Shown here one piece after another: positions 11,826 through 34,995 of a stretch of DNA of 64,000 bases. Origin of the DNA: Octopus vulgaris (taxonomy: Eukaryota); contig OX597829.1 of assembly GCA_951406725.2 (NCBI GenBank), positions 1,612,001-1,676,000 on the forward strand, read 5' to 3'. How positions within the stretch are numbered: position 1 is the stretch's first letter; every line of letters starts with the position of its first letter. Under the pieces are notes generated by a model. It did no database searches and had not been told where the DNA came from. It saw only the letters and a list, made by a program, of their open reading frames with translations. The translations under genes and the position numbers were made by a program.

Positions 11826-11888
<63 letters not shown>

Positions 11889-12598: not shown

Positions 12599-12636
<38 letters not shown>

Positions 12637-12726: not shown

Positions 12727-12770
<44 letters not shown>

Positions 12771-13083
12771 GTAGATGGCTTATTAACAATTTTAAAACCT
12801 AATACATACATATATGTACATGTATGTATGTATGTGTATGCATATATAGATATATATGTGTTTGTGTGTGTGTGTGTGTGTTTGTGTGCGTGCGTGTGTG
12901 TATGTGTATATGTATGTATATCTACAAGTTTTTTCATTCTCTCTCTGTTTATTTTCTTTTATTCCTTTGTTTTGAAGAGCATAGGCTCGAAACGTAAAAG
13001 ACTTTTTCATTTTCCCGAGCGTTAAACTAATACGCCTGCCTGTTCATACAGCTCTCTTTTGTTTTTTACTCTTCTATAAATTT

Positions 13084-13153
<70 letters not shown>

Positions 13154-13257
13154 CGGTAAGCTTTATGAAAATAGACAAAAGACGAAGGCAGGTTTACGGA
13201 AATAAACAAAAGACGAAGGCAGGTGAAAAACAAACAAACAATTGTATTAGTATGATA

Positions 13258-13595
13258 CTCTTTACTCTTTTTACTCTTTTACTTGTTTCAGGCATTTGAT
13301 TTCGGCCATGCTGGAGCACCGCCTTTAGTCGAGCAACTCGACCCCGAGACTTATTCTTTGTAAGCCTAGTACTTATTCTATCGGTCTCTTTTGCCAAACC
13401 GCTAAGCTACAGGGACGTAAACACACCAGCATCGGTTGTCAAGCGATGCTGGGGGGTGGAGACAAACACACACACACACACACATATATATTTATATACA
13501 TATACATACATAGGACGGGCTTCTAAATCCACTCACAAGGCTTTGGTCGGTCCGAGGCTAAGCAAGCTACTTACCACACAGCCACTCCTGCGCCT
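13258..13595 (-). mobile_element. SINE family B (internally deleted)
   Basis: Reverse complement of GGCGCAGGAGTGGCTGTGTGGTAAG head and GACTAAAGGCGGTGCTCCAGCATGGCC tail. Confidence 0.8.
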
Positions 13596-13879
13596 ATATA
13601 TATATATATATATATATATATACTATGAAGGAAAATATAATATGATATAAATTTGGGTGAATGCCTCTTTCAATACGCTTTGAAAATAGAGCCCAACTTT
13701 ATCCTGTACATTATCCAGTTCATATCACGGCAGTCCTTAGATATTGTTACTCATTTCTAATGACAAGTACAATTTGTAAATCCGATTCACAAATTATTTT
13801 GGGTGCATTAATCACGGAGGATATTGGAAAGTAAAAAACATAAATAATGAAATGCAATTTCAACGGTTTATTTAATTTA

Positions 13880-14300
13880 CAGTCGAACCAATTCTACTAC
13901 ATGGCTCAGAAACCTGGACGTTATCAAAGAAGCTTGAGAGGCGGTTGGATGGAACCTACACTCGCCTCCTTATGAGAGCTCAAAATCTCTCGTGGAAGCG
14001 TCATCCAACTAAAATGCAAATATATGGGAAATTACCACCTGTATCATCTCTTGTGAAAGGTAGAAGAGTCCAGTTTGCTGGATATTGTTGTAGAGCTGAA
14101 AACGAGGTAATTTCTACTCTTCTCCTCTGGAGGCCATCTACTCGCAATACCAGAGGGCGCACACTCTCCTACCCTGATGTAATCTCCAGGGATACAGGCA
14201 TCCAGCAACAGGACCTCCGTAATGCTATGAAGGACCGTGAAGTCTGGCGTAACATAGTAAATTCCATTGTCTCGACCACGGTCGAACAACGATGATGATA
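13880..14300 (+). mobile_element. RTE-like LINE 3' fragment
   Basis: LLHGSETWTL..LDGTYTRLLMRAQNLSW..VQFAGY..LRNAMKDREVWRNIV followed by a short (GAT)n tail; second copy at 45563-45815. Confidence 0.8.
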
Positions 14301-14539
14301 ATAGTTTACACGTGTTGCAAATAGCACAGCACAATGCAAGCGTTGCATTCATTAAAATATGGATATTTAACTGATTCTTCAATTCATCGATAAATTCGAC
14401 AGAAACACGTAGTCTCTAACTACAAAGCTATTTCTTTCAAAATGTTTCTACGCGCGCGTGCGCATACACGCACACACATACACATATATACACACGCAAA
14501 CACACGCACATACACAAACACAGACAAAATTTACATAGG

Positions 14540-14925
14540 GGCGCAGGCGTAGCTGTATGGTAAAAAATCTTGCTACCCATGTATATGGTTCACGATTCAG
14601 TCCCACTGCATGGCCTCTTGAGCAAGTGTCTTCTATTATAGCCTCGGGCCAACTAAAACCTTGTGAGAGGATTTGGTAGACGGAAACTGAAAGAAGCCTG
14701 TCGTATATATACTATATGTGTATATTTAAATGTTTGCGTGTGTTTGTGTCTGTTTGTCCTCCACCACTGTTGTTGGTGTGTTTACTCCCCGCAACTTAAC
14801 AGTTCGGCAAAGGAGAATAACAGAATAAGTACTAGGCTTTAAAAAATATGTTCTGGGATTCGATCCGTTTGATCGTTTGACTAAAATCTTCCATGGCCGC
14901 AATCAAATGGCTGAAACAAATAAAA
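14540..14925 (+). mobile_element. SINE family B (diverged)
   Basis: Contains family core CCTTGTGAG.GGATTTGGTAGACGGAAACTGAAAGAAGCC. Confidence 0.8.
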
Positions 14926-15149
14926 GATAAAAAAAAGTGTGTGTGTGTGTGTGTGTGTGTGTGAGTGAGTGTGTTTGTATGTGTGTGTCTTTATACACAC
15001 TTATATATGCTAACATACACACACACACGCACACATAAACACATGCAAACAAACACACACATACACACATACACGCACATACACATCTGTACGTATGTGC
15101 ATAAGAATATATGTATATGTCATACGTCGGTTTATATAGAAAATATTCC

Positions 15150-16110
15150 GAAAGAATATTAAATAGAATAGATGGAATATTAGAAACAAAGAAGAGATCA
15201 TTAGAAAAGGCATTGTAACAAACGTGTTCGCGGTGAGAATCCCTCTCAACCAATTCTTCAACGCGAAGCACGAAGTTTGAATTTTCAGAGCTATGGTGCG
15301 TGCTCGTGCTCTAAGACACGAATGAATGAAAGACACTCGGCTGGTGATGGTTCAACATGGTCCCTAAAGAACCAAAATTCACTCTTTGGTGGACAAAAAT
15401 GGTCGTATGCCACTCTAGTTCAGCCAGATGAGTTTGACATTTCATCAGGACTTCGCTCGACAGTTTGAAAAAAATGACGGACCGAAACAAAGGGTAACAA
15501 ATAAACTTTTGCCCATATCTCTTCTACTAAAGGCAAATTTCAAAATTTTGTCCTAAGTAATAGTGAAGGTTGTAGTGTTTTTCGTCGAGAGACTGATTGG
15601 TGATGCACAAAACATGAGCCATCCCAAGAAGATCTATTCGCAACAACCTCCACCTCATGCGATACATCATAGAAAAGGTGGGTAAAGAATGGATGGGGCG
15701 CTTATCAATTTGGATCGATCAAAATCCTTCGATTGGGTCGACCACCAGTATTTTGAAGCCGTTTACACAATGGTCGGATTAGGTTCCCTCTTCTGCTACA
15801 GAATTACCGCAATGTACAGTGACATCTGCTCGGTAGGTTGGGTGAATGGTTACCTATGGGAACCATTCACTATTACCCGTTCCCCTCTCTTCTATATGTA
15901 CTAACTCTAAAACATCTACTGTGAAAACTGAAGTCGTTGAGGTGCATCCCACGCGAACACTAGGATGCGAAAGAACCGTACAGACATATGCAGTCGATGC
16001 CATCGTCATTGTGTCAACCACCAAGCGCATAGACGCTTCTCTAAAACAATACGAGGCGATGACAGAAACAAAAACTCGGCACTTAGAGAGACAAGTCCAA
16101 GCTATTCAAT
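15150..16110 (+). mobile_element. Decayed non-LTR retrotransposon RT fragment (L1/Tx1-like)
   Basis: GALINLDRSKSFDWVDHQY resembles the RT motif LD..KAFDRV.H; downstream VNGYL.EPF.I and YA.DA remnants. Confidence 0.65.
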
Positions 16111-16261
16111 AACGCTGTGCGAAGCTGAACCGGCAATGCGGTTAATTTAAAGAAACTTTTGGTGAAAGCGAGGATAATTTTTCAGCTTCAACTTGTACAT
16201 TTTACTATGAAATCTGTTTCAGAAATTTTTTTCAGGAGTAAACAACAGGCCGCAGTAATGA

Positions 16262-16535
16262 GTAATTTTATTCCCATAGAAATACATTTCAGTAATTGAT
16301 TTGTTGTGACATGTAGCTTTGGTAAAACTTATCAAAAGCCGATATAAGCACAAAGTAACCTACACTTTTTGTTATGACAAGTCAACTTGTTGTGATTTAT
16401 TTCATAAACCTTTGTCTAAACTCAGTTTATCACTGAAGTTCTCATGGGAAATATTACGGTGAGAAAAGATGTTTCACCTGCGTAAGTCGTCATTGGCATT
16501 CACCTTTACTACAACATGAAAAAGTTTATGAACCA
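16262..16535 (+). ncRNA. Structured repeat unit U5
   Basis: Full-length match; 3' arm variant CACAAAG pairs perfectly with 5' arm CTTTG. Confidence 0.6.
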
Positions 16536-16960
16536 TGAAGGAACGCTTGGGGTTAACATGCGAATACGTTTATAGCCATGCTCTTAGAAATAGAAGTGAA
16601 ATTTCTCTCAAATAGAAGCTAAGTTCTTTAAAATATATAACATAATACAAATGCAAATTTAGATATCATGTCAACAAAATAATGATGATGCTGATGATTA
16701 CAACGATGAGGAAGATTATTCTTATGACTGTTGGTGAACCCCATACAAGATTTCACTGGGAACACTCCTATATTTCCTTTTCCAAGTGCGTTATATTGTT
16801 TATATGATATAACAAGAAGACGAAAGTGAAAGAAACACATTGCATCGCATAAATCATAACCAAGATGAGTGGATATTGATAGATGTGTAGACTGTGGTCA
16901 TTTTGATTTTTTTTTTTTGCTGCTGCTTATATTAAACTTCATGAATACCACTTCATCATA

Positions 16961-17147
16961 GGCGCAGAAGTGGCTGTGAGGTTAGAAGCTTGCTTACCAA
17001 CCACATGGTTACGGGTTCAGTCCCACTGCGTAGCACCTTGGGAAAGTGTCTTCTGCTATAGCCTCGAGCCGACCAAAGCCTTGTGAGTGGATTTGGTAGA
17101 CGGAAACTGAAAGAAGGCCGTCGCATATATGTATATATATATATATG

Positions 17148-17188
<41 letters not shown>

Positions 17189-17385
17189 TTGTGTGTGTGG
17201 TGTGTGTGTATGTTTGTGTGTGTTTGTCCCCCGAACATTGCGGTTCGACAAAAGAGACAGTTAGAATAAGTACTAGGCTTACAAAGAATAAGTCCCGGGG
17301 TCGATTTGCTCGACTAAAGGCGGTGCTCCAGCATGGCCGCAGTCAAATGACTGAAACAAGTAAAAGAATAGAAGAATAAAAGAAT
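16961..17385 (+). mobile_element. SINE family B
   Basis: tRNA-like head, conserved core, internal (TA)/(TG) microsatellite, AAAAGA tail. Confidence 0.85.
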
Positions 17386-17514
17386 ACGATCAGCCACGTG
17401 ATCTTGGATGAGATTTTGCTGAGCATGGCTTTCAAGTCATTTAATCTGCCAGAAATATATCTTCAACTACATACAGAACTTGTATTTCGCTACAGTTTAT
17501 ATAGATTAATCACA

Positions 17515-17689
17515 GGCGCAGGAGTGGCTGTGTGGTAAGTAGCTTGCTTACCAGCCACATGGTTCCAGGTTCAGTCCCACTGTGTGGCACCTTGGGTAAG
17601 TGTCTTCTGCTATAGCCCCGGGCCGACCAATGCGTTGAGAGTGGATTTGGTAGACGGAAACTGAAAGAAGCCTGTCGTATATATGTATG

Positions 17690-17722
<33 letters not shown>

Positions 17723-17922
17723 TTGTCCCCCTAGCATTGCTTCACAACCAATGCTGGCGTGTTTACGTCCCCGTTACTTAGCGGTTCGGCAAAACAGACC
17801 AATAGAATAAGTACTGGGCTTACAAAGAATAAGTCCCGGGGTCGATTTGCTCGAGTAAAGGCAGTGCTCCACCATGGCCGCAGTCAAATGACTGAAACAA
17901 GTAAAAGATAAAGAGTAAAGAG
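17515..17922 (+). mobile_element. SINE family B
   Basis: Same family as 16961. Confidence 0.85.
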
Positions 17923-18897
17923 AGGTCAGTAGTGAATAAAAGTCATATGGTATTTAAGTCTCTGGTCCTCCCTATTTTGGTCTATAGTTGTGATTCTTGA
18001 ACACTGTCTAAGTGCTGCTTGAACTACCTTGGTTCTACAGGTTACCATTGGTTGGATTTTATTTGTATGATTCGGAAGCGTCGGCTCAGACCGTTTGGTT
18101 CTGTTGATCTATTTTCTAATTAGATCCTACGTATCATGTTCTCTAATCTGAGAATTCGGCTGGGATGACGGCTCATGTTGATCGGCCAATTGCCTCATGG
18201 TAACGATGGATGAGGAAGTATTTTATAGAGGTGGGAACTGGGACACTTATCGAGGGGTTGTTCGAGAAGACTCGAGCAAATACTAAGAAATAGTTGATGT
18301 AGTGACGTGCTGCAATGGCGCATGACCCCCCCCCATACTTAACCTTACCAGCTCTGACTGCACCTTCATTTGTTTTCACACAAGCTTTCTAGTACTACCG
18401 TTTCCAGTGATTATTCTTTGTGGTCATTTAGCCGTAGTTCATCCCTGATCTAACACACATATGATCTAAGTACCATGATCAGTCTGTTTTTTTTTCTGAA
18501 TAGTTCCAAATGTGGCCATCTCTTTTATTCAAATATACATTACCTACATTTTTCTAATGGGACTACATTATCCAATGTGTCCTTCCTTCTTGTCGATTAG
18601 CACCTTATTAGTCCTGATCCCGCAGATCTATGATCAAAGTTGACCCAGCTGTAATTACCTTCATCGTTTCTTTTAAACGATCAATCAGACTTATGGCGAA
18701 AATCATCTCCTGTTGTGACAATGTTATCTTTTATTCAAACCTGGTGTACTCAGACATTAGTTCTTGTTTAGCAGAATTATGATCATAGATACTAGCGCTG
18801 TGACCGTCCTGAATTTTAATCAGAAAGAATGCATCTCAGTGCACAGATTCTAACATGCCTTTTCTTGTCGATGACGTCCGACCCTAGGTCCATTGTC

Positions 18898-19203
18898 ACG
18901 TGACGTCACGTGACCGACCAGGCTATCTAATTTTGGTATAAATCGCTGGTCACAATGCGATTCGCATTGTTTTAGCCTTCAAATGACGCCACCCCGCTGG
19001 CTAAGTGAGCAGGCCAACAGAAGGAAGAGTGAGAGAAAGTTGTGGGGAAAGAGTACAGCAGGGATCGCCGCCCCCTGCCGGAGTTCGTGGAGCTTTAGGT
19101 GCTTTCGCTCAATAAACACTCACAACGCCCGGTTTGGGAATCGAAACCGCGATCCCACGACCGTGAGTCCGCTGCCCTAACCATTGGGCCATTTCGCCTC
19201 CAC
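18898..19203 (-). mobile_element. SINE family C
   Basis: Reverse complement of copies at 22792 and 38470. Confidence 0.85.
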
Positions 19204-19326
19204 AGGTCCATTGTATTATCACTATTATAGATCTAGTGGGTTGCCAACGTCCAACAAATTTCCGCCCGTGACCCTCATGCACAACAGAGAATAATCTGTT
19301 TCTTTTTTTACTTTTTTATTGAGACA

Positions 19327-19545
19327 TACGAGTAGGTGCAGAAAAGTTCCTGGTTTTGGGTAAAAGAAAACAAAGGTAGATCGGTTAATTGCAATTTTAT
19401 CCAACATATTCCCCTCTCAGATTCACAGACTTATTGCAGCGATTCTTCAGTTTTTCTAATCCCTGTAAAAGACTTCGGAAGGCTGGGCCTCCAGCCAAGC
19501 CTTTTGCGATTCCTTTGAAGCCAGAAACTTTTCAGTATCCCCTAT
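19327..19545. mobile_element. Tc1/mariner-type MITE
   Basis: Imperfect TIRs TACGAGTAGGTGCAGAAAAGTTCCTGGTTT / AAGCCAGAAACTTTTCAGTATCCCCTATA with TA ends. Confidence 0.6.
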
Positions 19546-19874
19546 AATGTATGACCGAATGCAATATTAAAAATAACCCTCACAGTGCTGTTTATTTTGC
19601 TTTTGTTTTTGTTTCGACACCAGATCATCCCTCTCTAAGCAGCTTCACAATCAAATATCTTCTAGAAATGACCATTTAAATCATCGAAGCTAGGTTTTCT
19701 GTCTTCGTACATGTTGAACGTGAATAATTGAAGAGGTCGATCAGATGTAAATACATTTATTTCTCTGTGATTTTTTAGAAACCAAGAAGAGAAACCTCAG
19801 TTATCAGTTTTCCATGGCCTGCAAATGATTGAGATCCTAACATTGCCCTGAACGGGATGCGAGGCCGTTGCAGG

Positions 19875-20569
19875 GTGTGTATGTGTGTATGTGTGTATCT
19901 ATGTGTGTATGTATGTATGTATGTATGTATGTATGTATGTATGTATGTATGTATGTATGTATGTATGTATGTATGTATGTATGTATGTATGAATGTATGT
20001 GTGTATGTATGTATGTTTGTATGTATGTATGTATGTTTGTATGTATGTATGTATGTATGTATGTATGTATATATGTATGTTTGTATGTATGTATGTATGT
20101 TTGTATGTATGTATGTATGTGTGTATGTATGTATGTTTGTATGTATGTATGTATGTTTGTATGTATGTATGTGTGTATGTATGCATGTATGTATGTATGT
20201 ATGTATGTATGTGTGTATGTGTGTATGTATGTATGTATGTCTGTATGTCTGTATGTATGCATGTATGTATGTATGTATGTGTGTATGTATGTATGAATGT
20301 ATGTGTGTATGTATGTATGTTTGTATGTATGTATGTATGTTTGTATGTATGTATGTATGTATGTATGTATGTATGTATGTGTGTATGTGTGTATGTATGT
20401 ATGTATGTCTGTATGTCTGTATGTATGCATGTATGTATGCCTGCATCTGTCTGTCAGCTATCTAGCGCTTTATATGTGTTTGTGTTTGTGAATGTGAATA
20501 TATATAAAAATATGTGTGTGTGTGTGTGTGTGTGTGTATGTATATATGTATGCATGTATGTATGCATGC

Positions 20570-20650
<81 letters not shown>
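19875..20650. repeat. (ATGT)n microsatellite followed by (TG)n/(TA)n
   Basis: Directly visible. Confidence 0.95.
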
Positions 20651-20652
<2 letters not shown>

Positions 20653-20899
20653 ACAATTAAGGATAACTTCTTAATAAGGAATCTTAACAAGAAATTATCA
20701 GGTAGATAGCGTGAAAAACCTCATAAGACAAAAATTTCGAAAATAATTCTTTCTTATTGAACATATTAATTTATATATAGAGGGCATTATTACACATAAA
20801 TGCCTCACGCTAAGAGGGACATCAGTCATTTCTACCAAAAAATTTTACTAATCATGCCCAATGCAATTTTTCAAAGCAAGACATTTAAAAAATGAAATT

Positions 20900-20967
20900 A
20901 GTCTTATATCATCTGTGATTTCGCACTTACCGCAGAAGAATTTGCGACCATGCTCATCAGTAAGACT
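20900..20967 (-). ncRNA. Type I hammerhead ribozyme
   Basis: Minus strand: AGTCTTA-CTGATGA-GCAT..GTGC-GAAA-TCA(CAGA)TGA-TA-TAAGACT; 7-bp stem I, AUA triplet. Confidence 0.8.
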
Positions 20968-21198
20968 GATTCTGAACATATAAATAAACGACCAGTACCG
21001 TCAAAGTCGAACAGCCAATTGCTCTATTCCAACGAAGCACATGGAGAAGTTTACAAATCATATATCCGGTAAATATTCGAAGAAGCCCGCCATTTACCGG
21101 ATATATGATTTGTAAACTTCTCCATGTGCTTCGTTGGAATAGAGCAATTGGCTGTTCGACTTTGACGGTACTGGTCGTTTATTTATATGTTCAGAACC

Positions 21199-21266
21199 AG
21201 TCTTACTGATGAGCATGGTCGCAAATTCTTCTGCGGTAAGTGCGAAATCACAGGTGATTTAAGACT
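21199..21266 (+). ncRNA. Type I hammerhead ribozyme
   Basis: AGTCTTA-CTGATGA-GCAT..GTGC-GAAA-TCACAGGTGA-TT-TAAGACT; AUU triplet. Confidence 0.75.
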
Positions 21267-21386
21267 AAATTCATTTTTTAAATGTCTTGCTTTGAAAAAT
21301 TGCATTGGGTATGATTAGTAAAATTTTTTGGTAGAAATGACTGATGTCCCTCTTAGCGTGAGGCATTTATGTGTAATAATGCCCTC

Positions 21387-21446
<60 letters not shown>

Positions 21447-21561
21447 AAAAGCAATAAAGATTCAAGTTAATTTAAATGAATTTACTTGAATATGGTACCT
21501 AACTTAGATGCACCAAAAAACTATATGGTTTTAACAATACAGTAATGTGGCGTGATTATAA

Positions 21562-22694
21562 GCGAGAAAGAAGCAACAAGAATGGATAGGTTTTTAGTAC
21601 AATCGTTTCATACAAGGACAGGCTTTATTAAAAGTTGCAAAAATTGCAGCATATAAACGTGTCCCGTACACATCAGCTAAAATACATGTGAGTTCTCTAG
21701 ACATCCTAGTGGTTGAGGCTATACTCATGAAGTAATGTAGATAATTAAGTAACATAAACAGATTTCCAAAGTTCATTAAAGTTCTTTAAAGATGATGTAC
21801 AGTCTTATCACAGAATTTTAAAAAAGTTTTAATAGCATCACAGAGAAGGTGACTTAATCCATAGTGTACATATGAATTTCCAGAGATATGAGGAGGGATT
21901 ACATACTCACAGACGACAAATTTATCCATTGCTAATCACAACGAGGTGGGTCTCAATTCCTGCTTATTAGCATTACAGAGAGGGTGAATTAATCCTTTGT
22001 ATAGATGCACAATTTCCAAAGGTGTAGATGTAAATTTCCAGAGAAATGAAGAGGAATTTCATATTCACAGACGATAAATTTATCAATGGTTGAACACAAT
22101 GAGGTAGGTATCAATTCTTGCTATATGATTATATAGCAAGAATTGATACCTACCTCATTGTGTTCAACCATTGATAAATTTATCGTCTGTGAATATGAAA
22201 TTCCTCTTCATTTCTCTGAAATTTACATCTACACCTTTGGAAATTGTGCATCTATACAAAGGATTAATTCACCCTCTCTGTAATGCTAATAAGCAGGAAT
22301 TGAGACCCACCTCGTTGTGATTAGCAATGGATAAATTTGTGGTCTGTGAGTATGTAATCCCTCCTCATATCTCTGGAAATTCATATGTACACTATGGATT
22401 AAGTCACCTTCTCTGTGATGCTATTAAAACTTTTTTAAAATTCTGTGATAAGACTGTACATCATCTTTAAAGAACTTTAATGAACTTTGGAAATCTGTTT
22501 ATGTTACTTAATTATCTACATTACTTCATGAGTATAGCCTCAACCACTAGGATGTCTAGAGAACTCACATGTATTTTAGCTGATGAGTACGGGACACGTT
22601 TATATGCTGCAATTTTTGCAACTTTTAATAAAGCCTGTCCTTGTATGAAACGATTGTACTAAAAACCTATCCATTCTTGTTGCTTCTTTCTCGC
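21562..22694. mobile_element. Long palindrome (~565-bp arms, 4-nt spacer GATT) of a second Penelope-type terminal repeat
   Basis: Centre CTATAT-GATT-ATATAG at 22121-22136; mirror ORFs 21594..21776(-) and 22480..22662(+) differ by one residue. Confidence 0.8.
22574..22664 (+). ncRNA. Type I hammerhead ribozyme with long stem II
   Basis: TTTTAG-CTGATGA-GTACGGGACA..TGTCCTTGTAT-GAAA-CGATTG-TA-CTAAAA; GUA triplet. Mirror copy (21592-21682, minus) has core mutated to CTGATGT. Confidence 0.8.
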
Positions 22695-22715
22695 GTATAT
22701 ATATATATATATATA

Positions 22716-22785
<70 letters not shown>

Positions 22786-22791
22786 TGTGTG

Positions 22792-23095
22792 TGGAGGCGC
22801 AATGGCCTAGTGGTTAGGGCAGCGGACTCGCGGTTGTAGGATTGCGGTTTCGATTCCGAGACCGAGCGTTGTGAGTGTTTATTGAGCGAAAACACCTAAA
22901 GCTCCACGAGGCTCCAGCAGGGAGGAAGGAGCGATCCCTGCTGTACTCTTTCGCCACAACTTTCTCTCACTCTTTCTTCTGTTGGCCTGCTCGCTTAGCC
23001 AGCGGGGGTGGCGTCATTTAAAGGCTAAAACAATTCGAAGTACATTGTGACCAGCGATGTGTAACAACATATGATAGCCTGGTCGGTCACGGTGA
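22792..23095 (+). mobile_element. SINE family C
   Basis: TGGAGGCGCAATGGCCTAGTGGTTAGGGCAGCGGACTCGCGG tRNA-like head plus body ending GGTCACGGTGATA. Confidence 0.85.
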
Positions 23096-23117
23096 TATAT
23101 ATATATATATATATATG

Positions 23118-23198
<81 letters not shown>

Positions 23199-23486
23199 GT
23201 CGGTGTGTGTGTGGTGTGTGCGCGTGCGAGTGTGTGTGTATGTAAAACTATGTAGGTTAAGGCAGTACCTCAGAGGATCGAAAGCTAACCAAAACAGTAA
23301 TACATTAACTTCGAAGGTAATAATTAAATATTAAAAATTAGTTCTATTTTTCGTAGAATTTCCTTATTATATTGATAAAAGCATTTTTTTTTTTGCGTGG
23401 AAGCTTCATTTTACTTTATCTGGAGTTCACACTATAAGCATTTGACGGGGAAATATGTATCACAATGAAATTTAACAAAATTGATG

Positions 23487-24085
23487 GTGAATTTTCCTTC
23501 CCAGAAAGATACATTCTTAGTATTTGATTTGTTTTGACATGTAGCTTTGGTAAAGCTTAAATAAAGAGCATATCAGCACCAGGTAACCTATATTTTGTCA
23601 TAACAAGTCAACATGCTAAGTATTGCTTAAAAAAACTTTAGTCTAAACTCAGTTTATTACTAAATTTCTCATGGGAAATTTACGACGAGAAAAAAATAAT
23701 TTCGTCAGTACATGTTGTCGATGGCATTCGCGTCTATTATAAGAGGAGAAAGTTTACGAACACACGATGTGGCTACGCGAATGTAAAAGGATGAATTTTA
23801 TTTCCCAGAAAGATACTTTTTGATATTGATTGATTTGCTGTGACATGTGACTTCGGTAAACCTTATCAAAAGAATATCTAAGCAACAGGTAACCTACATT
23901 CTATTACGACAAGGCAAAATGTTATGAGTTACTTGAAAAAAACCTTAGACTAAACTAAGTTTATTACTGAAAAGAGTTCTTATGGGAAATACTGAGGTTG
24001 GAGGAGATGCAGTTTCGGTTACGCTGGTGTCAATATCGTTTACCTATGTCATAATACGAGAAAGTCTACGGATACAAAATGTGGT
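23487..24085 (+). ncRNA. Structured repeat units U6 and U7 (tandem pair)
   Basis: Two consecutive ~300-nt copies; both show compensatory changes in domain-2 stem P2 (GACGA/TCGTC; ACTGAG/TTCGGT). Confidence 0.6.
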
Positions 24086-24184
24086 TATTCGACTTCCTTG
24101 AAACAGCCTTTACATCTCACTCAAATAACAAAAAGTATACTCTATTAGAGGATACAAATCCTTTGTATTTTTAATGTTTTATGC

Positions 24185-25020
24185 ATTTCAGCTCAAAGGC
24201 AGTGGCCATGCTAGGGCACCGCCAGTACTAACACCTTTTCTATGGCCATTCATTTATGGTTGTCTTTTGATGAAGGAGGGGGTTCGGTATTGCTGCTCTC
24301 TTTTGAGTTTCTTGCCATGGTGTAGATTCAAGTAGGACCTTGGACAGCAGAAGATCGAGTTGTTTTTTGAAAACATCAACTCCTACACTATGTAGGTCAC
24401 TCAGAGCTTTTGGCAAGCTATTAAATAGTTCTCGCGCTAGCTATCATGCCAAGCTATGGACCTCAATTTAGACGGGAGGGGTAGAACCTTTGGAACATGG
24501 CAATGACATCTGCTTCGGGGTCTGTTATAAATCTCGATGCCAAAGTTTGGTACCAACTTTTTTAGGATCTTCCATATGTATATCACTACATGTCTCTCCC
24601 GTCTTCGCTCCAAGGAGTAGAGTCATAGCTCTTTCAGTCTCTCCCAGTAGCTCAGCTGTTCCATCGCTGCAATCAGTTCGAAATAACATATGATGGTATG
24701 TGTTTTTCAGCAGCTGCAACGCCAGAGATCAGGTGTATTGCTTGATTATATGTAACTAAGTCTCTCAGGAATTGGGTTTTGCGTTGATGGGATTTTACAA
24801 GGCTGTTGACATTCAGCAGATATATTGGTGTGACATACAGAGTTTCTTGTATCAAGATTCTTCAGGGTTTCCGCAATCAGATTGTTTGGCAGTGATCGTT
24901 CTGCAAAGTTCCATGCTAGGCACATCGTTTTGATTTCCTCAAATTGTCAGTTTCTTTGTAATTTAAAGGTGGTGCTGTCTTTGCTGTAGTTGGTTTTGAT
25001 GAGCTCCATGTTCTTGAGAT
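24185..25020 (-). mobile_element. Decayed CR1/L2-like LINE remnant
   Basis: Minus-strand remnants LLNVNSL (endonuclease start-like) and LFNSLPKAL.DL (typical CR1/L2 ORF2 C-terminus). Confidence 0.5.
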
Positions 25021-26242
25021 AGGGAGGCAGAGAGGGCAAGAAAAAGTAGAGACAGATAAGCAGATAAAAGGGTAGAGAGAGGTCGGTAGTAAAGAAAGTC
25101 AAGAAAAGTAGAGAGAGCAGTAGAGATAGAGAAACGTAAGTTGAGATGAAGAAACAAAGAGAGAAAAACGAAGATAAGAGAGATAGGGGGAGAGAGAGAG
25201 AGAGAGAGCTGAGTGAAAATATGTGAGAAAGAGAGATCGATGTAAATAGAAATGCGGAGACAGAGAGTGAAAGAATGTGGAGATGAGGGAGAGAGAAGGA
25301 TAAATCAATATAAATAGAAGAGATAGTGGAAATGGATGTCAAAGAGAGGTCAATGTAGATATAAACGAAGAGGAGTAACAAAGAGATAGAAAGGGAAGAA
25401 AGAGTGAGAGGTATAGAGAAAATAGATCAATTTAAGTGTAACTAGAGATAAAGACACAACTCAGAGGTGGTGATAAAAATTCTGTCTGACATTAGACATG
25501 TGATAATGAAAATATATAAAAATTATCAGTATGTATCGAGGAAGGCAGAAAAAAAGAGATAATAATAAACTTTTGTTTCTGTTACCTTCAGATTGGTCCG
25601 ATTAAAACGAAATAAATTTCTTCTCACTTTGTGTACTTACCCAACTTCAATGATCTAACCTACGTGATTTACTATCGAAAAATGTAAACAAACCTCAGAT
25701 TCCAGAAATTCTTGTATTTGATACTCTTTTGCAATCTACAAAATTGCATACAAACGTTTGGGTCATACAAGTTGGAATCTTCCGATCGTATTTTTCAAAG
25801 TACAGTCATACGTAGATATGAAGATATATTTACTCAACGATTAGGCGAGTTGGCCTTAATCTTTTAACGTCGAAAAATTCCTTAAAAACTGCATTACGGT
25901 TGATGGAATTAAAATATTGTTTTTTTAAATTATGGTATAATGGCAGTAATATATTTCAACCAGAGACCAATTAGATTTCAGTTCAATTCGATCTAATTGG
26001 AATTTGTCGATTCTTCCAGTATCTTAGCTTGACAGCTTTAACAAGCCGGAGTCATCTTATAAAATAAAAATTCTGAAAACAAATAATATCGATGATCTTA
26101 ATGTTGCGAAATATTATTGATACAGTCAACATTTATGATAGTCTTTCGGTGACAATATTGAGTTCAGCCAAAACCGAAACTTATTTTACTAGATTAATCT
26201 GATATTCTAGATATAAAGCTCAAAGTGCTGGAAAAAAATTAT

Positions 26243-26380
26243 GCTTACGAACCACATGGCTCCGGGTTCAATCCCACTGCGTGGCAACTTGGGCAAGTGT
26301 CTTCTACTATAACCTCGGACCGACCAATACCTTGTGAGTGGATTTGGTAGACGGAAACTGAAAGAAGCCCGTCGTATATG

Positions 26381-26471
<91 letters not shown>

Positions 26472-26690
26472 GTGTGTGTGTGTATGTTTGTATGTCTGTG
26501 TTTGTCCCCCCAACATCGCTTGACAACCGATGCTGGTGTGTTTACGTTCCCGTAACTTAGCCGTTCGGCAAAAGAGACCGATAGAATACGTACTAGGCTT
26601 ACAAAGAATAAGTCCTGGGGTCGATTTGCTCGACTAAAAGACGGTATTCCATCATGGCCGCAGTCAAAATGACTGAAACAAGTAAAATAC
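26243..26690 (+). mobile_element. SINE family B (5' truncated)
   Basis: Family core and tail present. Confidence 0.85.
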
Positions 26691-26941
26691 TAAATATAGA
26701 CAATGATGATAATATCAGGATGATAGCGATGATAAGGATTATTGTTATCAATATCTATAAATTCGATAAATGATCGCAGTGAGATTATTTTCACACTTCC
26801 TTCGATAAATATAAAAATTCTTATCTTGTTTAATAAGAAGACGGATGTGAAAGAAACAGTATTGTGGGATTGCTAACTGATGAAGTAGAACAATGATAGC
26901 TCTACAAAAAATGAAGTTAACACCTTGTTACTTCTGATATC

Positions 26942-27422
26942 TGGAGGTGCAATGGCCCAGGTGTAAGGGCAGCGGACTCGCGGTCCTAGGATCGAGGTTT
27001 CGATGCCCAGACCAGGCATTGTGAGTGTCTATTGAGCGAAAACACCTAAAGTAGTGGTCATCCCTGCTGTACTCTTTCACCACAACTTTCTCTCACTCTT
27101 TCTTCCTGTTTCTGTTGTACCTGTATTTCAAAGGGCCAGCCTTGTCACACTCTGTGTCACGCTGAATCTTCCCGAGAACTACGTTAGGGGTACACGTGTC
27201 TGTGGAGTGCTCAGCCACTTGCACTTAATAAATGAGCTGCGACGTCAATGGTGCCAAGCTGTATCGGCCTTTGCCTTACCCTTGGATAACATCGGTGGCG
27301 TGGAGAGGGGAGGCCGGTATGCGTGGGCAACTGCTGGTCTTCCATAAACAACCTTGCCCTGACTTTTGCCTCGAAGGGTAACTTTCTAGGTGCAATCCCA
27401 TGGCCATTCATGACCGAAGGGC
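26942..27422 (+). mobile_element. SINE family C variant with longer body
   Basis: Family C head; body segments shared with minus-strand copies at 40110-40345 and 46630-46930. Confidence 0.75.
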
Positions 27423-28100
27423 GTCACAATCACACACACACACACACTTCTGATATCTCATACCTATAGAGAAATAGGATTTTCTATTCTTTTATTCAAA
27501 TAATAATATATCATGGGCAACATATAATAATGTGTACTTCTTTGTCGTTGTAGATATTATTTGAACCTGCGCACATTTAGTCATCATTGTTGCTTGTCTT
27601 CTATTAATGCATGGTGTACCTAGTATTACGTTATCGAATGTGTCCCTCCTTGTTATTATTCCTAATTTAAAAGATCTTGCTTATATTAAGAAGTGGTGTA
27701 TCTAGGACTACATTACCTGGTGTATATTTTATTTATATTAGCATTATTTTTGGTCTCTTTCAGAAGACCTTCATCATCTGACCATCCGGTTGTGCTAAGA
27801 GAAACCTGTCTTTCAGCCAGTCATAGTGTATCAAGGACTACAACATTATCTAATATCTTCTTCCTTGTTGCTGCTCGGTCAAAGTAGATCCATCAGATTT
27901 ATAACCAAAATGTGTTTCAGGAGTGATTGTTTTGTCTTTCATTCCAAACGAAGGTTCCTCTCTTTGGACATTATATGCTTTATTTTTAAGAAGTTTCGAT
28001 ACGATCCTATTATGGTTTCGTTATTTTAAGCCAAGTCTAGGTGCCGTAGAATGTCCATTTATTGATAACTCACCGTTATCAGATTCAAGATTGAACATTG

Positions 28101-28310
28101 CGGCGAGCTTGCAGAATCGTTAACACGCCGGGGAACACGTCTAACGGCATTTCATCCGTCTTTACATTCTGAAATCTAATTCCGCGGAGGTCGATTTTGC
28201 TTTTCATCATTTCGGGGTCGATAAAATAAGTACCAGCTAAGCATTGGGGTCGATATAATTGATTTACCCTTCTCCTAAACTTTCTGGCCTTGTGCCAAAA
28301 TTTGAAATCA
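28101..28310 (+). mobile_element. SINE family A (diverged)
   Basis: GCGGCGAGCTTGCAGAATCGTTAAC head, tail GGCCTTGTGCCAAAATTTGAAA. Confidence 0.8.
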
Positions 28311-28416
28311 ATGTTTAACTAAGTCTAGTGTTCAGAGAGCTTATACTTTTGAAGAAAAGATTCTTAATACTATGAAATTAACAGAAAAGTTATTCAGAAG
28401 AAAACAAGCTGCAAAA

Positions 28417-28725
28417 TGGCGAATTTCATTTCGAAGCGAAATGATACATTTTTAGTAATTGATTTGTTGTGACATGTAGTTTTGATAAAACTTAACACAC
28501 ACAAAAAAAAAAAAGCCGAAGAAGAAACATATAAGCACCAGGTAACTTATATTTCGTTATGACAAGTCAACATGTTATGAATTACTTCAGAAAAACATAG
28601 TCTAAACTCAGTTTATTGCTTAAGTTCTCATGGGAAAAATCACGGTGAGAAAAAGCGTAAGTTTTACCTGCGCGGGGCTTCAATGACATTCAACTCTACC
28701 ACAAGAGGAGAAAGTTTACAAACCA
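28417..28725 (+). ncRNA. Structured repeat unit U8
   Basis: Full-length match; an A-rich insertion is confined to the apical loop of the hairpin (~28496-28530). Confidence 0.6.
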
Positions 28726-29039
28726 CAAGAAAGTCAGTCTAATTTCTGGAAATAGCAGTCGAATTTACCAGAAATCAGACATTTATAGGAACATATTAGA
28801 TAATACAAACATATGTACATTGTGCATGAAATAAAGATCTTTATAATAATGATGACGATGATGTTTTAATATTGACAAAGTTTGTTATTGTCAGTAACAG
28901 GGGGACCATACAAACAACTACACTGAAATGGTTTTCACATTTGCTTCACCAATGAATGTCAATCTTATTTAAATGGAGTATGGAAGTGAAAGATACATAC
29001 TCTATTTTGGAATTGACAACAAAGGAGACTGGACAACAA

Positions 29040-29378
29040 TCTCTCTCTCTCTATCCGCTCAGTTGAAGTCGACTCTCGGTTACTCAATGGATCAGTGTTC
29101 TCTAGCCGGTTCTATCCTGGGCCGCTTCTTTCAGATTGGCTATGTCCATTCCCGTATCACTCTTGATGGTGTCAAGCCAGCGGCTTCTTGGTCGGCTTCT
29201 TCCTCTCTTGCCACTGACCATTCCGAGCTTGATGTCCTTCTCCAGGGATTTTCTCCGCATAATATGACCAAAATATGTCAATCTATGCTTGGTGATCCTA
29301 GCTTCTAGTGACAGTTTTGGCTTGATCTGGTTAAGAACTTCTCCATTGGTGAGCCTCGCTGTCCATGGAATCCGTAAA
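29040..29378 (-). mobile_element. RTE/BovB-like LINE 3' fragment
   Basis: Minus strand encodes RIPWTARLTNGEVL..YFGHIMRR.SLEKDI.LGMVSGKRGRGRP..RWLDTI; ends in a (GA)n tail. Confidence 0.75.
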
Positions 29379-30779
29379 ACTGGACAATAATAGATGCGTG
29401 AAATATTATGTTATTGCGGTTAACTCCAGGTCAGACCTTATTCACCAAATATTTCGATCAAACTTAGCGTAAACGTAAATCTCCAGTGCTTTTTCTTTTC
29501 TTTTCTTTTTAATTCACGTAGTAATGTACCAAGAAGTACAAATGTGACTAATTTTTGTTAGATGAAGAATGGCTCAAATCCTATCACTAAATTTGTTCTG
29601 GGTGTTAAGTCTATGTTTTAACTGTATATTTATCCATTGTTTTACTGCGGTTACATTTTGTCAGGCATCTCTTTATATTCTTATTGTTGCTTCATTGAGC
29701 TTTGTACAAGATAATTCTTGCAGATCAATGATTAAGGGCGCTCCTTCCATGACCAGCCCTTAATTTAAATACGGAGATGTACTTTGATTACAGCATATAA
29801 ATGTCTCTCGTTGTTGTTATTTAGTCACATGTCATCGATCAACCATCAGTGACCAAGTTATTCTACTTTACCATTATATATTTTGGCCGAATTCTGCTTT
29901 AAACACGCCATATAACTACTAATGACTTTCTATTTTTTGGGAATTTTCAGAAAACTTTTGTGAATTTGTATTCTACCACTCCTTGTTTCATAACCCGTGT
30001 CTTTCTATCCTGGCTGCTATTTCCTGTAGTAGGCAAAACCTGTACATACACACACATACACAAATATATGCATATATATATATATATATAAAAGAAAGAA
30101 AATGCACATACTTTACATAGTTTTAATATACGTTAAAATTTATTTTATAAGTGAAAGTGTATTGCGTTTGTCGACCGGTTTCGCTTTCGCTAATAATGAC
30201 ATTTAGATTATTGTAATTTCGTATTTTCTTACGAAAATTTTAGTCCGTGTTCGTTTGGTAGTTTGTGAATGAAATGAATCAACAGGTAGAAAAATCTCAG
30301 GGAATGTAAGTGATGATGGTTATTATTCGGAACAGGGGAAGTAATTGCTCATTTTGGGGGAGGGGATATACTAAAACTCAAATGCTAAATTATTGAGATT
30401 AAATATTTACAGTGATGTGTATGTATACCACACCCACACACACACATTTAGACGTGTATGTACATATGTGCATATGTGTGTGCGCTTGTGCGTGTCTGCG
30501 TGTATGTGTAAAATTATAAGGTGTTGAAAATGCACTAAATTTGTGTGGTTGTGTCTGTGTATTTGCATAAAAAAAGTTATATTTTTTTTAACCTAGAATG
30601 CATGTTTCATGTTTCCCAGAGGGAAGACCCTCTTCTCCCGGATCTTGTAGGTTTTGAATTATCATCGTTACCCTTGTAACTTTGCTTTTTCCTGGCAGAA
30701 AAAGCAATCCAATTTTTACCTCTTGAAAATGTGGTCTACATTAGTCTGGCCTCTGTTCTTTGACTTATCCAGCACAAGA

Positions 30780-31112
30780 GGCCCTATGGGGTCCTTGCGT
30801 TCTACAGGCTTAGATTGAGGTACACAAGCTACAAAAGCCATACACTCGTACATACTTAATAAACGAAATGGACAGTGAAGCCCTCTGAGCTCCAGGATGT
30901 GACCGAAAATTTAGATTATGTCAAATTTCTGAGGGAGACATCACACATGTAAACAGCACTTTCCCCGAAAATGTCATCTGGGTTCCATCTCCCAATGCGA
31001 CATGACATCTACCTCAAATTAAACTGTTCTAGGATAAATTTAGAGAATTCCCTCCTGTTACAGAATACGTAGATAAGTATCAACCCAAAAAACATTGGTG
31101 GAACATTCCCAT

Positions 31113-31114
<2 letters not shown>
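30780..31114 (+). mobile_element. Decayed RLE-class (Dong/NeSL-like) non-LTR fragment
   Basis: Frameshifted RK.RLCQ.SE.DITHV..PKMSS..LPMRHD and KHWWNIPI resemble the zinc-knuckle region before the RLE domain. Confidence 0.45.
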
Positions 31115-31181
<67 letters not shown>

Positions 31182-31781
31182 TGTGCATGGATAAATGCAA
31201 ACATTTATGTATGCATATGTATATGCATGCATACATGATGTCTGTCCACTAAAAACACTGTGTATTCCGACAGAATTATACTTTATCCATCACTGGAGAC
31301 TGATAAGCCCAGCTCTTGATTGACATGCATGTCTGCAGATACTGCCCACGAAACGTTTCCCATTCACTGCACTGGCAGTGTGTTTTTGAGTCCCTCACTT
31401 CAGATAATGCACAATGTGCATTTCTTCAAAAACATCCTCTCTTTCCTTTACTAATTGCGCCATTGGTAGCGGTGATAATTTGTTTCTTCCCCAATTGATC
31501 TCCCATATTTCGCATATCTTCAACGAGGACTTTATACCATACTTAAACCGTAATCTTGGTTTCCGCTTTTTGCGCCATATAGCATTTGTGTAATGATCCT
31601 TTGATCATTCATCCGAACAAGCGCGTAATCCGTGCTTGTGCATCTTCGACTCAATGCTCAGGATGTCGGACCCCCTCCTGACCTCTGTGTCTGAGGTCCT
31701 CAAGGTCTAGCCATGGTAAATACTTATACACACACCATACGTTCACACAGGTATACATACATACAAGCACATACATACGTA

Positions 31782-31855
<74 letters not shown>

Positions 31856-32005
31856 GTGAAATAGAAAGATGAATAATCTTGTAGTAGATTAATCAAAAGT
31901 TTAACCGATACCTTAGTAGCAAAAATCACAGCAGTAAAACAGCACGGTTGGAGGTACAACCATATGGTGTTGCAACCGTGCGTTGGTGCGGATAATTGAA
32001 ATTAG

Positions 32006-32463
32006 AACATTATTGGTGAATTGAAGAAATGGAGCTGAACGCAGATTGAACAGAAATCGTTTTATTTCATTCTACACGTGTTTCGAAAGGCACAAATTAC
32101 CAAAATCCGATGGAATAATGGAACCATATTGTGTCTTTCTCTTCAGGAAGAAAATAGGAAATCCGTTGGAAAAACAAAAACAGAACAGAGGCGGAGCAAA
32201 AACAAATCGAACTATGCTCCTAAGAGCCCATGGCGCGCCATGGGCTCTTAGGAGCATAGTTCGATTTGTTTTTGCTCCGCCTCTGTTCTGTTTTTGTTTT
32301 TCCAACGGATTTCCTATTTTCTTCCTGAAGAGAAAGACACAATATGGTTCCATTATTCCATCGGATTTTGGTAATTTGTGCCTTTCGAAACACGTGTAGA
32401 ATGAAATAAAACGATTTCTGTTCAATCTGCGTTCAGCTCCATTTCTTCAATTCACCAATAATG

Positions 32464-32465
<2 letters not shown>
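32006..32465. mobile_element. Perfect 460-bp spacerless palindrome of a third Penelope-type terminal repeat
   Basis: Centre CATGGCG|CGCCATG at 32235/32236; identical ORFs predicted on both strands. Confidence 0.8.
32315..32408 (+). ncRNA. Type I hammerhead ribozyme (mirror copy at 32063-32156, minus)
   Basis: TATTTTCTTC-CTGAAGA-GAAAGACACAA..TTGTGCCTTTC-GAAA-CACGTG-TA-GAATGAAATA; palindromic stem III ACACGTGT, GUA triplet. Confidence 0.8.
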
Positions 32466-32513
<48 letters not shown>

Positions 32514-32578
32514 AGAGAGAGAGAGATGTACTTGCATAGCGAGTGACTTGATCTGAGATCGTGTGCTGGAACGAAAGC

Positions 32579-32817
<239 letters not shown>

Positions 32818-33139
32818 ATAGATATAGATATAGATATAGATATAGATATATAGATATAGATATGCACACAAACACACACACGTACATATACGCATGCATA
32901 CATACACATGTAATTAATTTGATTTGTTATTAAAAAGTGTAAATATTTTGTATTATTTTGTCAGTTGAATATTGTGTTCAGGCGATTTACCTCAGTCAGG
33001 TAAAAGTTTGACCGTTGCATCTAAATTTTACAACTCTAATTTGAGGTTCAAACCACATGCTTACACTAAAGAAGGAAAAGCACACGTGATTGATATTAAT
33101 CTCAGTAAAACAATATACTAAAGTAAATTTCTCATAAAA

Positions 33140-33735
33140 ATGGCAAATTTATTGCAGAAATGTAACAGCTTTACTAACTGATTTGCTGTGACATAGTAGC
33201 TTTGGTAAACCTTATCAAAAGAATATCTAAGCACGAGGTGACCTACATTTTGTTATGGCAAGTCGACATGTTATGAATTGCTTCAAAAATTGTTAGTCTA
33301 AACTCAAGTTTATAACTGGAAACAGTTATCATGGGAAAAATTACTGTGAGAAAAAATAAAGTTTCACCTGTGCATGTTGTCAATGGCATTCACCTTTGCC
33401 ATAACATGAGAAAGTTTAGGAACACACGATGTGGTTACACGACTGCACATGGTAAATTTTATTTCTCAGAGCGATACACTTTTAGTAACTGATTTGCTTT
33501 GACATGTAGCTTTGATAAACCTCAACAAAAAAACATATGTGCACCAAGAAACCTAAACTTTGTTGTGACAAATCAGCAGGTTAATGAATTACTTAAAAAA
33601 AGCCTTACACCAAATTCAATTTATTACTGAAGTAAATTCTCATGAGAAAAATTTCGGTGGGAAAAAATTAAGTTTCATCTGTGTAGGTTGTCGATGGTAT
33701 TCACCTCTGTCATAAGAAGAGAAAGTTTACGAATC
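33140..33735 (+). ncRNA. Structured repeat units U9 and U10 (tandem pair)
   Basis: Two consecutive copies; compensatory pairs TTGCTG/TGGCAA (U9) and CTGATTTG/CAAATCAG (U10). Confidence 0.6.
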
Positions 33736-33879
33736 CTTTAGGAATTATATATATGGAAACAGTACTGCTGGAAATGATATTCAAATCTCCCTCAAATTCA
33801 TCCCACCATATGAAAGAAGAATGTATTAGATAATTCATATCTAGATGACATTTCTTATGAAACAAAAGTTATGATTTTG

Positions 33880-34476
<597 letters not shown>

Positions 34477-34995
34477 GGCTCTCGTGGCTTCTGATCTTAA
34501 CTGATTGGAAGTGTTATCATGTACATTGTTTTGTTTTGGTATAAAAGATGGACTAACATCAAATATTCTGCTCAATACCACAGATTTGCTTGTCAGTTGT
34601 TTGACCTTAACCAGTTGACCATGTCCCTTAGAGGCTGACGATATGTGCATCTCTGATCACGAGCAGAAGTAGTGGGGGAGCATCATAGCCATGTGTTGAG
34701 AGGGATTATTTGGGATTAGAATAATTCACCTTTGGAAACATGGGTGTTTCGTTCAACATCCTTAAACAACCCTTATTCAGGGACCTTTTGTGTGGGATGG
34801 GCTACTTGATCAGAAGGCAATTCTAACTGGGCCCCACCTGCAAGGTCATACGCTGTTAATCTTGATATGAGATCACCATGTCACGCACATATGGTTGTGA
34901 TGCATGTGCCTGGTGTACCCTTATTAGACGGGTATACTGGGCTTCGTATATTTTACCCCAGTGTCACTTTGATAGCATGCACTGCTCTCTCACTT
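34477..34995 (+). mobile_element. ~520-bp non-coding element embedded in (AAT)n
   Basis: GGCTCTCGTGGCTTCTGATCTTAACTG..CTGCTCTCTCACT(AAT)n; near-identical copies at 57723 and 58960. Confidence 0.75.

What the first reader, a model, noticed from the sequence alone, without database searches (positions are those of the whole stretch)
23665..23760. Domain 2 is a ~100-nt three-way junction with clear covariation that a miRNA does not explain
Seen (coordinates are for U6): P1 TTCTCATG/CATGAGAA encloses P2 GGTGAG..TTCACC (A-rich variable loop) and P3 AGGT-TGTC-AAT-GGCA-TTC-ACCT. Compensatory changes: P2 becomes GACGA/TCGTC in U6 and ACTGAG/TTCGGT in U7; P1 becomes TTCCCA/TGGGAA in U1; the P3 base becomes ATGT/GCGT in U6 and AAG/CTT in U4. 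It lacks hammerhead core nucleotides and I do not recognise the family. Inference: a separately selected RNA element always linked ~50 nt downstream of the hairpin, such as a processing enhancer, protein-binding module, stability element or new ribozyme.
Basis: partly seen in the sequence, partly recalled or inferred. Interest (0 to 1): 0.8.

Follow-up and report, generated by a model that had tools for sequence, protein, structure and literature searches.

The report
Decaying fold in octopus-like repeat cluster
This 100-base stretch is the tail of a roughly 270-base non-coding unit copied about 21 times at one spot in the genome; its likely ancestral form is predicted to fold as a three-way RNA junction, but today's copies keep that fold no better than random decay would, so it is probably a relic rather than a new, separately selected RNA device.

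Summary
The segment is real. It is the 3' third of a ~270-nt non-coding core present in about 21 copies within 53 kb; own-genome searches found no other copies. The commonest letter per column gives all 23 proposed pairs, and that yardstick sequence is predicted to fold as the P1-P2-P3 junction. The claimed 'clear covariation' is not supported. Compensatory double changes match neutral expectation (6 vs 5.3), no pair is significant in a G-test (low power), and RNAalifold keeps only P2. U6 lacks the stated P1 3' strand (GAGGAGAA). Only 1 of 18 copies is predicted to form all three helices (neutral decay: 1.2). At least five copies have lost or broken Domain 2, several with the upstream hairpin intact. 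In favour of function, the whole core, linker included, has diverged about half as much as its co-duplicated flanks. Pair-breaking changes are mildly depleted in Domain 2 (p 0.003-0.12, best in P2) and clearly depleted in the hairpin. No Rfam, ribozyme-core, coding or dispersed-transposon match was found. Best reading: the mostly relic 3' module of an ancestral structured RNA in a local tandem gene cluster. Expression is unknown.

The parts
23492..23761 (+). U6 core unit (~270 nt): leader, Domain 1 hairpin, linker, Domain 2; first half of a head-to-tail dimer with U7
23519..23627 (+). Domain 1 long bulged hairpin; pair-breaking changes depleted across copies (79 vs 107-128 expected)
23628..23665 (+). 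Linker; indel-prone, but substitution distance similar to Domain 2
23666..23673 (+). Proposed P1 5' strand TTCTCATG; half of an imperfect palindrome; can instead pair with the unit's 5' leader
23672..23678 (+). TG(G/A)GAAA motif; 5 of its 7 columns are invariant in the 18 copies tested; best-conserved sequence in Domain 2
23684..23706 (+). P2 hairpin (GACGAG / A-rich loop / TTTCGTC in U6); the only helix RNAalifold keeps and the only one predicted in U6; borderline variation support
23712..23733 (+). Proposed P3 (8 of 8 pairs possible in U6, with G-U wobbles); not predicted to form in U6; no significant variation support
23743..23750 (+). Proposed P1 3' strand; GAGGAGAA in U6 (2 mismatches); part of an internal direct repeat of the CATGRGAAA..TTACG motif
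23796..24073 (+). U7, second unit of the dimer; most diverged Domain 2 among full-length copies (0.31 from majority)
893..53023 (+). Whole cluster: about 21 copies (7 dimers plus singles; 20 on +, one inverted at 52707-53023; one split by a SINE at 3186-3846) inside larger co-duplicated cassettes with at least 130 nt upstream and at least 350 nt downstream homology
44427..44514 (+). Domain 2 of u44234, the only copy whose predicted MFE is the three-way junction (z = +0.17)

Best explanation
Domain 2 is the 3' third of a ~270-nt non-coding core that was copied about 21 times at this one locus, and it is likely the relic 3' module of an ancestral structured RNA whose predicted fold was this junction or just its P2/P3 hairpins. 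Shown: local amplification inside larger cassettes, a core about half as diverged as its flanks, a star-like copy tree and no coding frame. Inferred: the cluster is or was transcribed on the + strand by Pol II as a host transcript; the Domain 1 hairpin is the processed or protein-bound part (pri-miRNA-like); Domain 2 acted in cis as a helper scaffold presenting the UU..UGRGAAA..GA-AA sequence to a protein. Also inferred: the core was held by selection or gene conversion for a period and then largely released, so most present copies of Domain 2 are decaying, with at most weak residual selection on P2 and the motif.
For: Majority letters give 23 of 23 pairs and fold as the junction; 6.4% of shuffles are as stable and 1.6% as stable and as well defined. 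Core vs flank p-distance: D1 0.19-0.21, linker 0.25-0.31, D2 0.24-0.27, flanks at least 0.39-0.41. In the one pair with close flanks (u43168/u48727) flank 0.27 is about equal to core 0.23-0.34, as expected after release. Star tree with internal branches 5.6% of length and gamma alpha 5.9. Helix retention in copies equals neutral decay from the majority: P1/P2/P3 in 4/6/3 of 18 vs 5.2/6.8/4.5, all three in 1 vs 1.2. Domain 2 is deleted or broken in copies with an intact Domain 1 (u1180, u43168). A 29-nt deletion of P3/P1 3' strands appears in one contig of run X3 (depth 5.1). The D1 pairing signal is robust (p <= 0.001). T4 runs on both strands in 19 of 19 copies argue against Pol III for the whole unit.
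Against: Column rates are overdispersed (chi2/df 1.54; 15 invariant D2 columns vs 7.4 expected), and pair-breaking changes in D2 are somewhat depleted (63 vs 73-85; p 0.003-0.12 depending on the null). Pure neutral decay is therefore not the whole story, and some copies may still be under selection. The majority fold is only marginal (z -1.84) and could be chance. No expression evidence exists either way. The role proposed for Domain 2 is inferred from position and motif only.
Confidence: 0.5

Rival explanations
1. Domain 2 never had a selected RNA fold. It is sequence-constrained DNA or exon sequence built from a short motif repeated in both orientations (TGRGAA, TTCACCT), for example a cluster of transcription-factor sites. 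The helices are a by-product of that repetition.
For: Five TGRGAA motifs lie in the majority unit vs 0.27 in shuffles (post hoc). P1 is exactly an inverted pair of that motif, and TTCACCT occurs twice, giving a competing P2 register that wins in u43168 and u52681. P1 shows G-U:A-C of 8:8 and a kept fraction of 0.30, no better than arbitrary complementary helices. The invariant columns are sequence motifs without covariation.
Against: Two of the motif copies are poorly kept (G to A in 7 of 21 at one site). Changes that keep pairing are in slight excess in D2 (0.39 vs 0.29, p 0.014-0.035). Neighbouring Domain 1 shows a pairing signal, which implies an RNA.
Confidence: 0.25
2. One reading: a separately selected, currently functional three-way-junction RNA (processing enhancer, protein-binding module or new ribozyme) in most copies.
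For: The majority folds as the junction. D2 is conserved above the flanks. The covariation score was reached by 15 of 500 and 12 of 500 shuffles (the tool states these are not probabilities). U6 has two adjacent compensatory pairs.
Against: Compensatory changes are at the neutral level overall. 63 broken pair cells were counted in 18 copies. Only 1 of 18 copies is predicted to form all three helices. P1 probability is 0.00 in the whole-unit majority fold. The linker is equally conserved. The domain is lost in several copies. No CUGANGA core was found on + in 19 copies.
Confidence: 0.13
3. The unit is a fragment of an old non-autonomous transposable element or satellite, amplified locally and homogenised by gene conversion, with no host function.
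For: Star phylogeny, near-uniform rates and head-to-tail dimers. Conversion among cores could lower core divergence without selection.
Against: All 19 of 19 genome matches lie in this window, and two patterns hit only here. Flanks were co-duplicated, unlike transposition. Large deletions fall mainly in the linker and loops and spare the Domain 1 stem. Pair-breaking changes in D1 are depleted.
Confidence: 0.12

Closest known systems
C19MC-type clusters of tandemly repeated small-RNA genes (PMC2691840, passages read)
   Same: Lineage-specific, single-locus, same-strand array of hairpins embedded in longer repeated units among SINEs, with no protein-coding frame.
   Different: C19MC has 46 validated pre-miRNAs in introns between repeated exons. 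Here neither transcription nor processing is shown, the hairpin is long and bulged and overlaps the putative splice signals, and a second conserved downstream module is present.
SRP Alu domain three-way junction (features recalled)
   Same: Two hairpins separated by a UGU(A/G)C stretch and closed by a third helix, in the majority sequence.
   Different: No Rfam SRP match at E <= 10. The junction strands are 9-12 nt long, the two loops are not complementary, and there is no S domain.
Hammerhead ribozyme / retrozyme tandem repeats (features recalled)
   Same: ~300-nt tandem units containing a three-helix junction.
   Different: No CUGANGA core on + in any of 19 copies and no Rfam hit. The units are not dispersed.

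Membership tests
   23 of 23 pairs; predicted fold when isolated
   No significant pair (best E 1.0), but only 4.9 substitutions per pair; compensatory count equals neutral. R-scape itself was not available.
   1 of 18 vs 1.2 expected; 0 of 18 vs 0.12 in strict register
Hammerhead ribozyme | CUGANGA and GAAA core in the junction | tested here: not met
   0 of 19 copies on +, 1 of 19 on -; Rfam none
SRP Alu domain | Rfam match, loop-loop pairing, S domain | tested here: not met
   No SRP family at E <= 10; loops are A-rich and AAU
C19MC-like miRNA cluster | Single-locus, same-strand tandem array of hairpin-bearing units | tested here: met
   D1 pairing signal
C19MC-like miRNA cluster | Mature/star reads with 2-nt overhangs; host transcript | not testable with these tools
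   No RNA holder listed; contigs cannot show small RNAs; miRNA sequences were not among the supplements that could be read
Pol III ncRNAs (7SK, Y, vault, SRP) | No internal run of 4 or more T in the full unit | tested here: not met
   T4 runs on both strands in 19 of 19 copies
Box C/D snoRNA, Sm snRNA, telomerase RNA | C box, Sm site or telomeric template | tested here: not met
   C box 0 of 19, template 0 of 19, Sm pattern 1 of 19 on +; Rfam hits only at E >= 0.77, far below gathering
Dispersed transposable element | Copies at many genomic loci | tested here: not met
   19 of 19 matches in the window; single-copy depth over the units in three runs. BLAST-level sensitivity only; no repeat library on hand.
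Protein-coding exon array | Conserved open frame and codon periodicity | tested here: not met
   Stops in all six frames; no 3-nt periodicity; Pfam none for the three + frames of u33120

The most novel reading that the evidence does not exclude
A cephalopod-specific cluster of ~20 genes for an undescribed ~270-nt structured RNA. In it the UGRGAAA strand switches between pairing with the 5' leader and closing the 3' three-way junction, so Domain 2 acts as a conformational switch or protein dock that licenses processing of the upstream hairpin. A few copies (such as u44234 and u52681) would still be active.
Probability: 0.12. Interest if true: 0.72.

Novelty: new member of a known kind. Interest (0 to 1): 0.3.

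Why it matters
If the best reading holds, this is an undescribed local cluster of once-constrained non-coding RNA genes in decay. It is a modest example of birth and death in an octopus-like genome, and a caution that a fold seen in a majority sequence plus a few hand-picked double changes is not covariation. If the novel case holds, it would be a new two-module ncRNA with a cis-acting processing element in a lineage known for RNA-level innovation, testable with existing small-RNA data.

Tried and rejected
Rfam at gathering threshold on the whole window: none; at E <= 10 on two dimers: only chance-level hits. ARAGORN: no tRNA. Pfam on the three + frames of u33120: none. Pfam on 140 of 198 ORFs of 75 aa or more in 60 kb either side: five reverse-transcriptase-type hits and two weak sub-threshold hits, no clear host gene. 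Sequencing runs: no RNA holder listed; the one guessed-RNA run laid had no cover on the units; neither is evidence on expression. SNPs in runs X1-X3 fall both inside and outside units and are too few to test selection. Metagenome and viral pattern scans: 0. Covariance models were built but could only be run on held sequence: 19 hits, all in the window, none in 120 kb of neighbours. The first D1 simulation used a wrong register for one D1 helix; it was corrected. A SECIS-like spacing pattern (8 of 19 copies on +) was rejected because, read on the majority letters, its two strands are a direct repeat and not complementary; the hits were not located copy by copy. D1 thermodynamic persistence is only slightly above its null (8 of 19 vs 7.0 +/- 1.9), so that test is weak for both domains. 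The bacterial promoter/terminator scan was uninformative. Earlier findings of the scan: nothing for this place or sequence; the two word hits are unrelated bacterial cases.

Full report
CONTEXT. The window lies at G000:C16:1612001-1676000 of a 2.8-Gb assembly. I take it to be octopus-like from the genome size and the microsatellite- and SINE-rich sequence; no call establishes the organism. The window's ORF list shows only repeat- and transposon-like frames by eye, and 140 of 198 long ORFs from 60 kb either side gave only reverse-transcriptase-type and two weak hits. The finding sits in one of about 21 copies of a ~270-nt core (mean pairwise identity 66% including ragged ends). Twenty copies are on + and one is inverted; seven pairs are head-to-tail dimers. 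Two DNA searches of the own genome returned 19 of 19 matches inside this window, and two patterns hit only here. A profile and a covariance model found nothing in 120 kb of neighbours. In three runs, depth over five units equals single-copy flank depth. These are BLAST-level searches, so very distant relatives could be missed.

THE OBSERVATION. Using each column's commonest letter as a yardstick, all 23 proposed pairs are possible. The yardstick folds as the P1-P2-P3 junction when folded alone (0.96/0.95/0.94; -22.0 kcal/mol, z -1.84). Of 500 shuffles, 6.4% are as stable and 1.6% are as stable and as well defined. In the whole unit P1 drops to 0.00, because its 5' strand pairs with the unit's leader instead. 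In U6 itself the P1 3' strand is GAGGAGAA, 6 of 8 pairs, and only P2 appears in the MFE (z -0.56). By helix, 2 of the copies have a perfect P1, 5 a perfect P2, 3 a perfect P3 and none all three. RNAalifold on 15 of the 21 copies keeps only P2 (-0.78 kcal/mol).

COVARIATION. The copy tree is a star (internal branches 5.6% of length; gamma alpha 5.9), so copies are nearly independent draws. Compensatory double changes number 6 against 5.3 +/- 2.2 in a neutral simulation. The pair counter gives 4 pairs vs 3.4 shuffled on 15 copies and 6 vs 4.3 on 19 model-fitted copies; its covariation score was reached by 15 and 12 of 500 shuffles, which the tool says are not probabilities. A G-test with APC and a simulated null finds no significant pair (best E 1.0) at 4.9 substitutions per pair. 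By the logic of Rivas et al. (10.1101/789404, passages read) such an alignment is probably low-power, so this test alone is inconclusive; I did not see their fitted curve. The U7 example needs a 5-nt register shift. Granting it, P2 alone has 5 compensatory cells vs 1.5 (p 0.014) and the whole domain 8 vs 5.1 (p 0.145). The same paper warns that sliding sequence under a proposed stem creates spurious covariation.

MORE SENSITIVE TESTS. For the Domain 2 tests I left out u3159 (no Domain 2), u3540 and u1180 (largely deleted), which favours the structure. Against unpaired columns of the same units, pair-breaking cells in Domain 2 are 63 vs 84.9 (p 0.003). With a column bootstrap they are 63 vs 77.3 or 72.6 (p 0.053, 0.123), and the fraction of changed cells still paired is 0.39 vs 0.29 (p 0.035, 0.018). 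P2 carries most of this; P1 carries none (0.30; G-U:A-C 8:8). Several unrelated complementary helices in the yardstick score 0.43-0.55. Domain 1 gives a clear signal by the same tests (79 vs 107-128; p <= 0.001). Thermodynamically, present copies keep the helices as neutral decay from the yardstick predicts: 4/6/3 of 18 vs 5.2/6.8/4.5, and all three in 1 (u44234) vs 1.2 (strict register). Mean MFE of the copies is slightly lower than the null (-17.5 vs -15.9, 5% of simulations as low), without favouring this fold. The same folding test is only weakly positive for Domain 1, so it is not strong evidence alone.

IS DOMAIN 2 SEPARATELY SELECTED? The cores sit in larger cassettes with at least 130 nt of upstream and at least 350 nt of downstream homology. 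Flank p-distance is at least 0.39-0.41, near the shuffled level of 0.42-0.48, against D1 0.19-0.21, linker 0.25-0.31 and D2 0.24-0.27. The whole core was therefore protected, by selection or conversion, and Domain 2 no more than the linker. In the one pair with close flanks (u43168/u48727) core and flank are equally diverged. Domain 2 has 15 invariant columns vs 7.4 expected, concentrated in UU..UGRGAAA and the G..AA of the closing strand, which is sequence conservation without covariation. It is deleted, truncated or interrupted in u1180, u3540, u43168, u48727, u49007 and u43460, and Domain 1 is nearly intact in u1180 and u43168. One contig of run X3 lacks 29 nt from 41892, removing the P3 and P1 3' strands of u41638 (depth 5.1, weak). 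The apparent linkage is explained by co-duplication.

MECHANISM. Shown: local amplification, a protected core, no coding frame, and T4 runs that argue against Pol III for the full unit. Inferred: a + strand Pol II host transcript (the G-U pairs of Domain 1 favour +); Domain 1 as the working hairpin; Domain 2 as a cis helper presenting a protein-binding motif on a P2/P3 scaffold; and release from constraint in most copies (confidence 0.5).

COMPARISON AND NOVELTY. There is no Rfam match and no hammerhead core, C box or telomeric template. It is arranged like C19MC, a tandem non-coding cluster with hairpins in longer repeated units (PMC2691840, passages), but membership needs small-RNA evidence I could not obtain. 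For the octopus miRNA paper (PMC9699675) I read passages, the supplement list and part 1 of the tables zip. A search of its supplements for unit motifs found nothing, but the PDF was not searched and the data archive was cut, so an existing miRNA annotation of Domain 1 is not excluded. MirGeneDB 3.0 passages (PMC11701709) do not mention such a cluster. Four literature searches (listings and abstract starts only) showed no paper on this element. SRP, hammerhead, SECIS and CSL-site features are recalled, not from a call.

VERDICT. Observation partly confirmed; interpretation partly supported. The junction is a plausible ancestral fold with borderline support for P2, not a clearly covarying, separately selected domain. 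Interest 0.3.

Noticed in passing
window 20763-21403, 21557-22699, 32003-32468: Three long near-perfect palindromes (95%, 99% by BLAST, and over 99% self-complementary), two just upstream of U6. Foldback elements or assembly artefacts.
   Followed up: partly
about 70-150 nt upstream of first units, e.g. window 5850-5900, 43060-43110, 48635-48680 (minus strand): Decayed tRNA-like A/B-box remnants pointing away from the unit in several cassettes; weak (best nhmmer E 0.63 to a SINE head).
   Followed up: partly
window 23497-23503 with 23672-23678 (U6) and homologous sites: The unit leader can pair with the TGGGAAA motif and displaces P1 in the whole-unit fold of the majority sequence; a possible alternative conformation.
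   Followed up: partly
window 23492-23504, 23582-23589, 23684-23690 (U6) and homologous sites: Splice-like signals: a pyrimidine tract plus YAG at the unit start (16 of 20 copies by my count on the alignment, about 13 expected), and GT donors in the hairpin and at P2. Not significantly conserved.
   Followed up: partly
all units; in U6 at 23666-23678 and nearby: Five TGRGAA motifs in both orientations in the majority unit (0.27 expected); they resemble CSL/Su(H) sites (recalled), without the paired-site spacing.
   Followed up: partly
window 49187-49258: A 28-nt tandem repeat (2.6 copies) of the P1 5' strand region inside copy u49007.
   Followed up: no
window 3186-3846: One copy is split by SINE insertions exactly between Domain 1 and Domain 2.
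   Followed up: partly
window 42985-43621 vs 48558-49149: The most recent cassette duplication; flank and core are equally diverged.
   Followed up: yes
window 61407-62393: A 328-aa frame resembling a mariner transposase (recalled resemblance). Several LINE-like fragments lie elsewhere in the window.
   Followed up: no
L028:4450-4767 (minus): Weak 7tm chemosensory receptor Pfam hit (E 6.8e-5, below the curated cut-off), about 25 kb past the window end.
   Followed up: no
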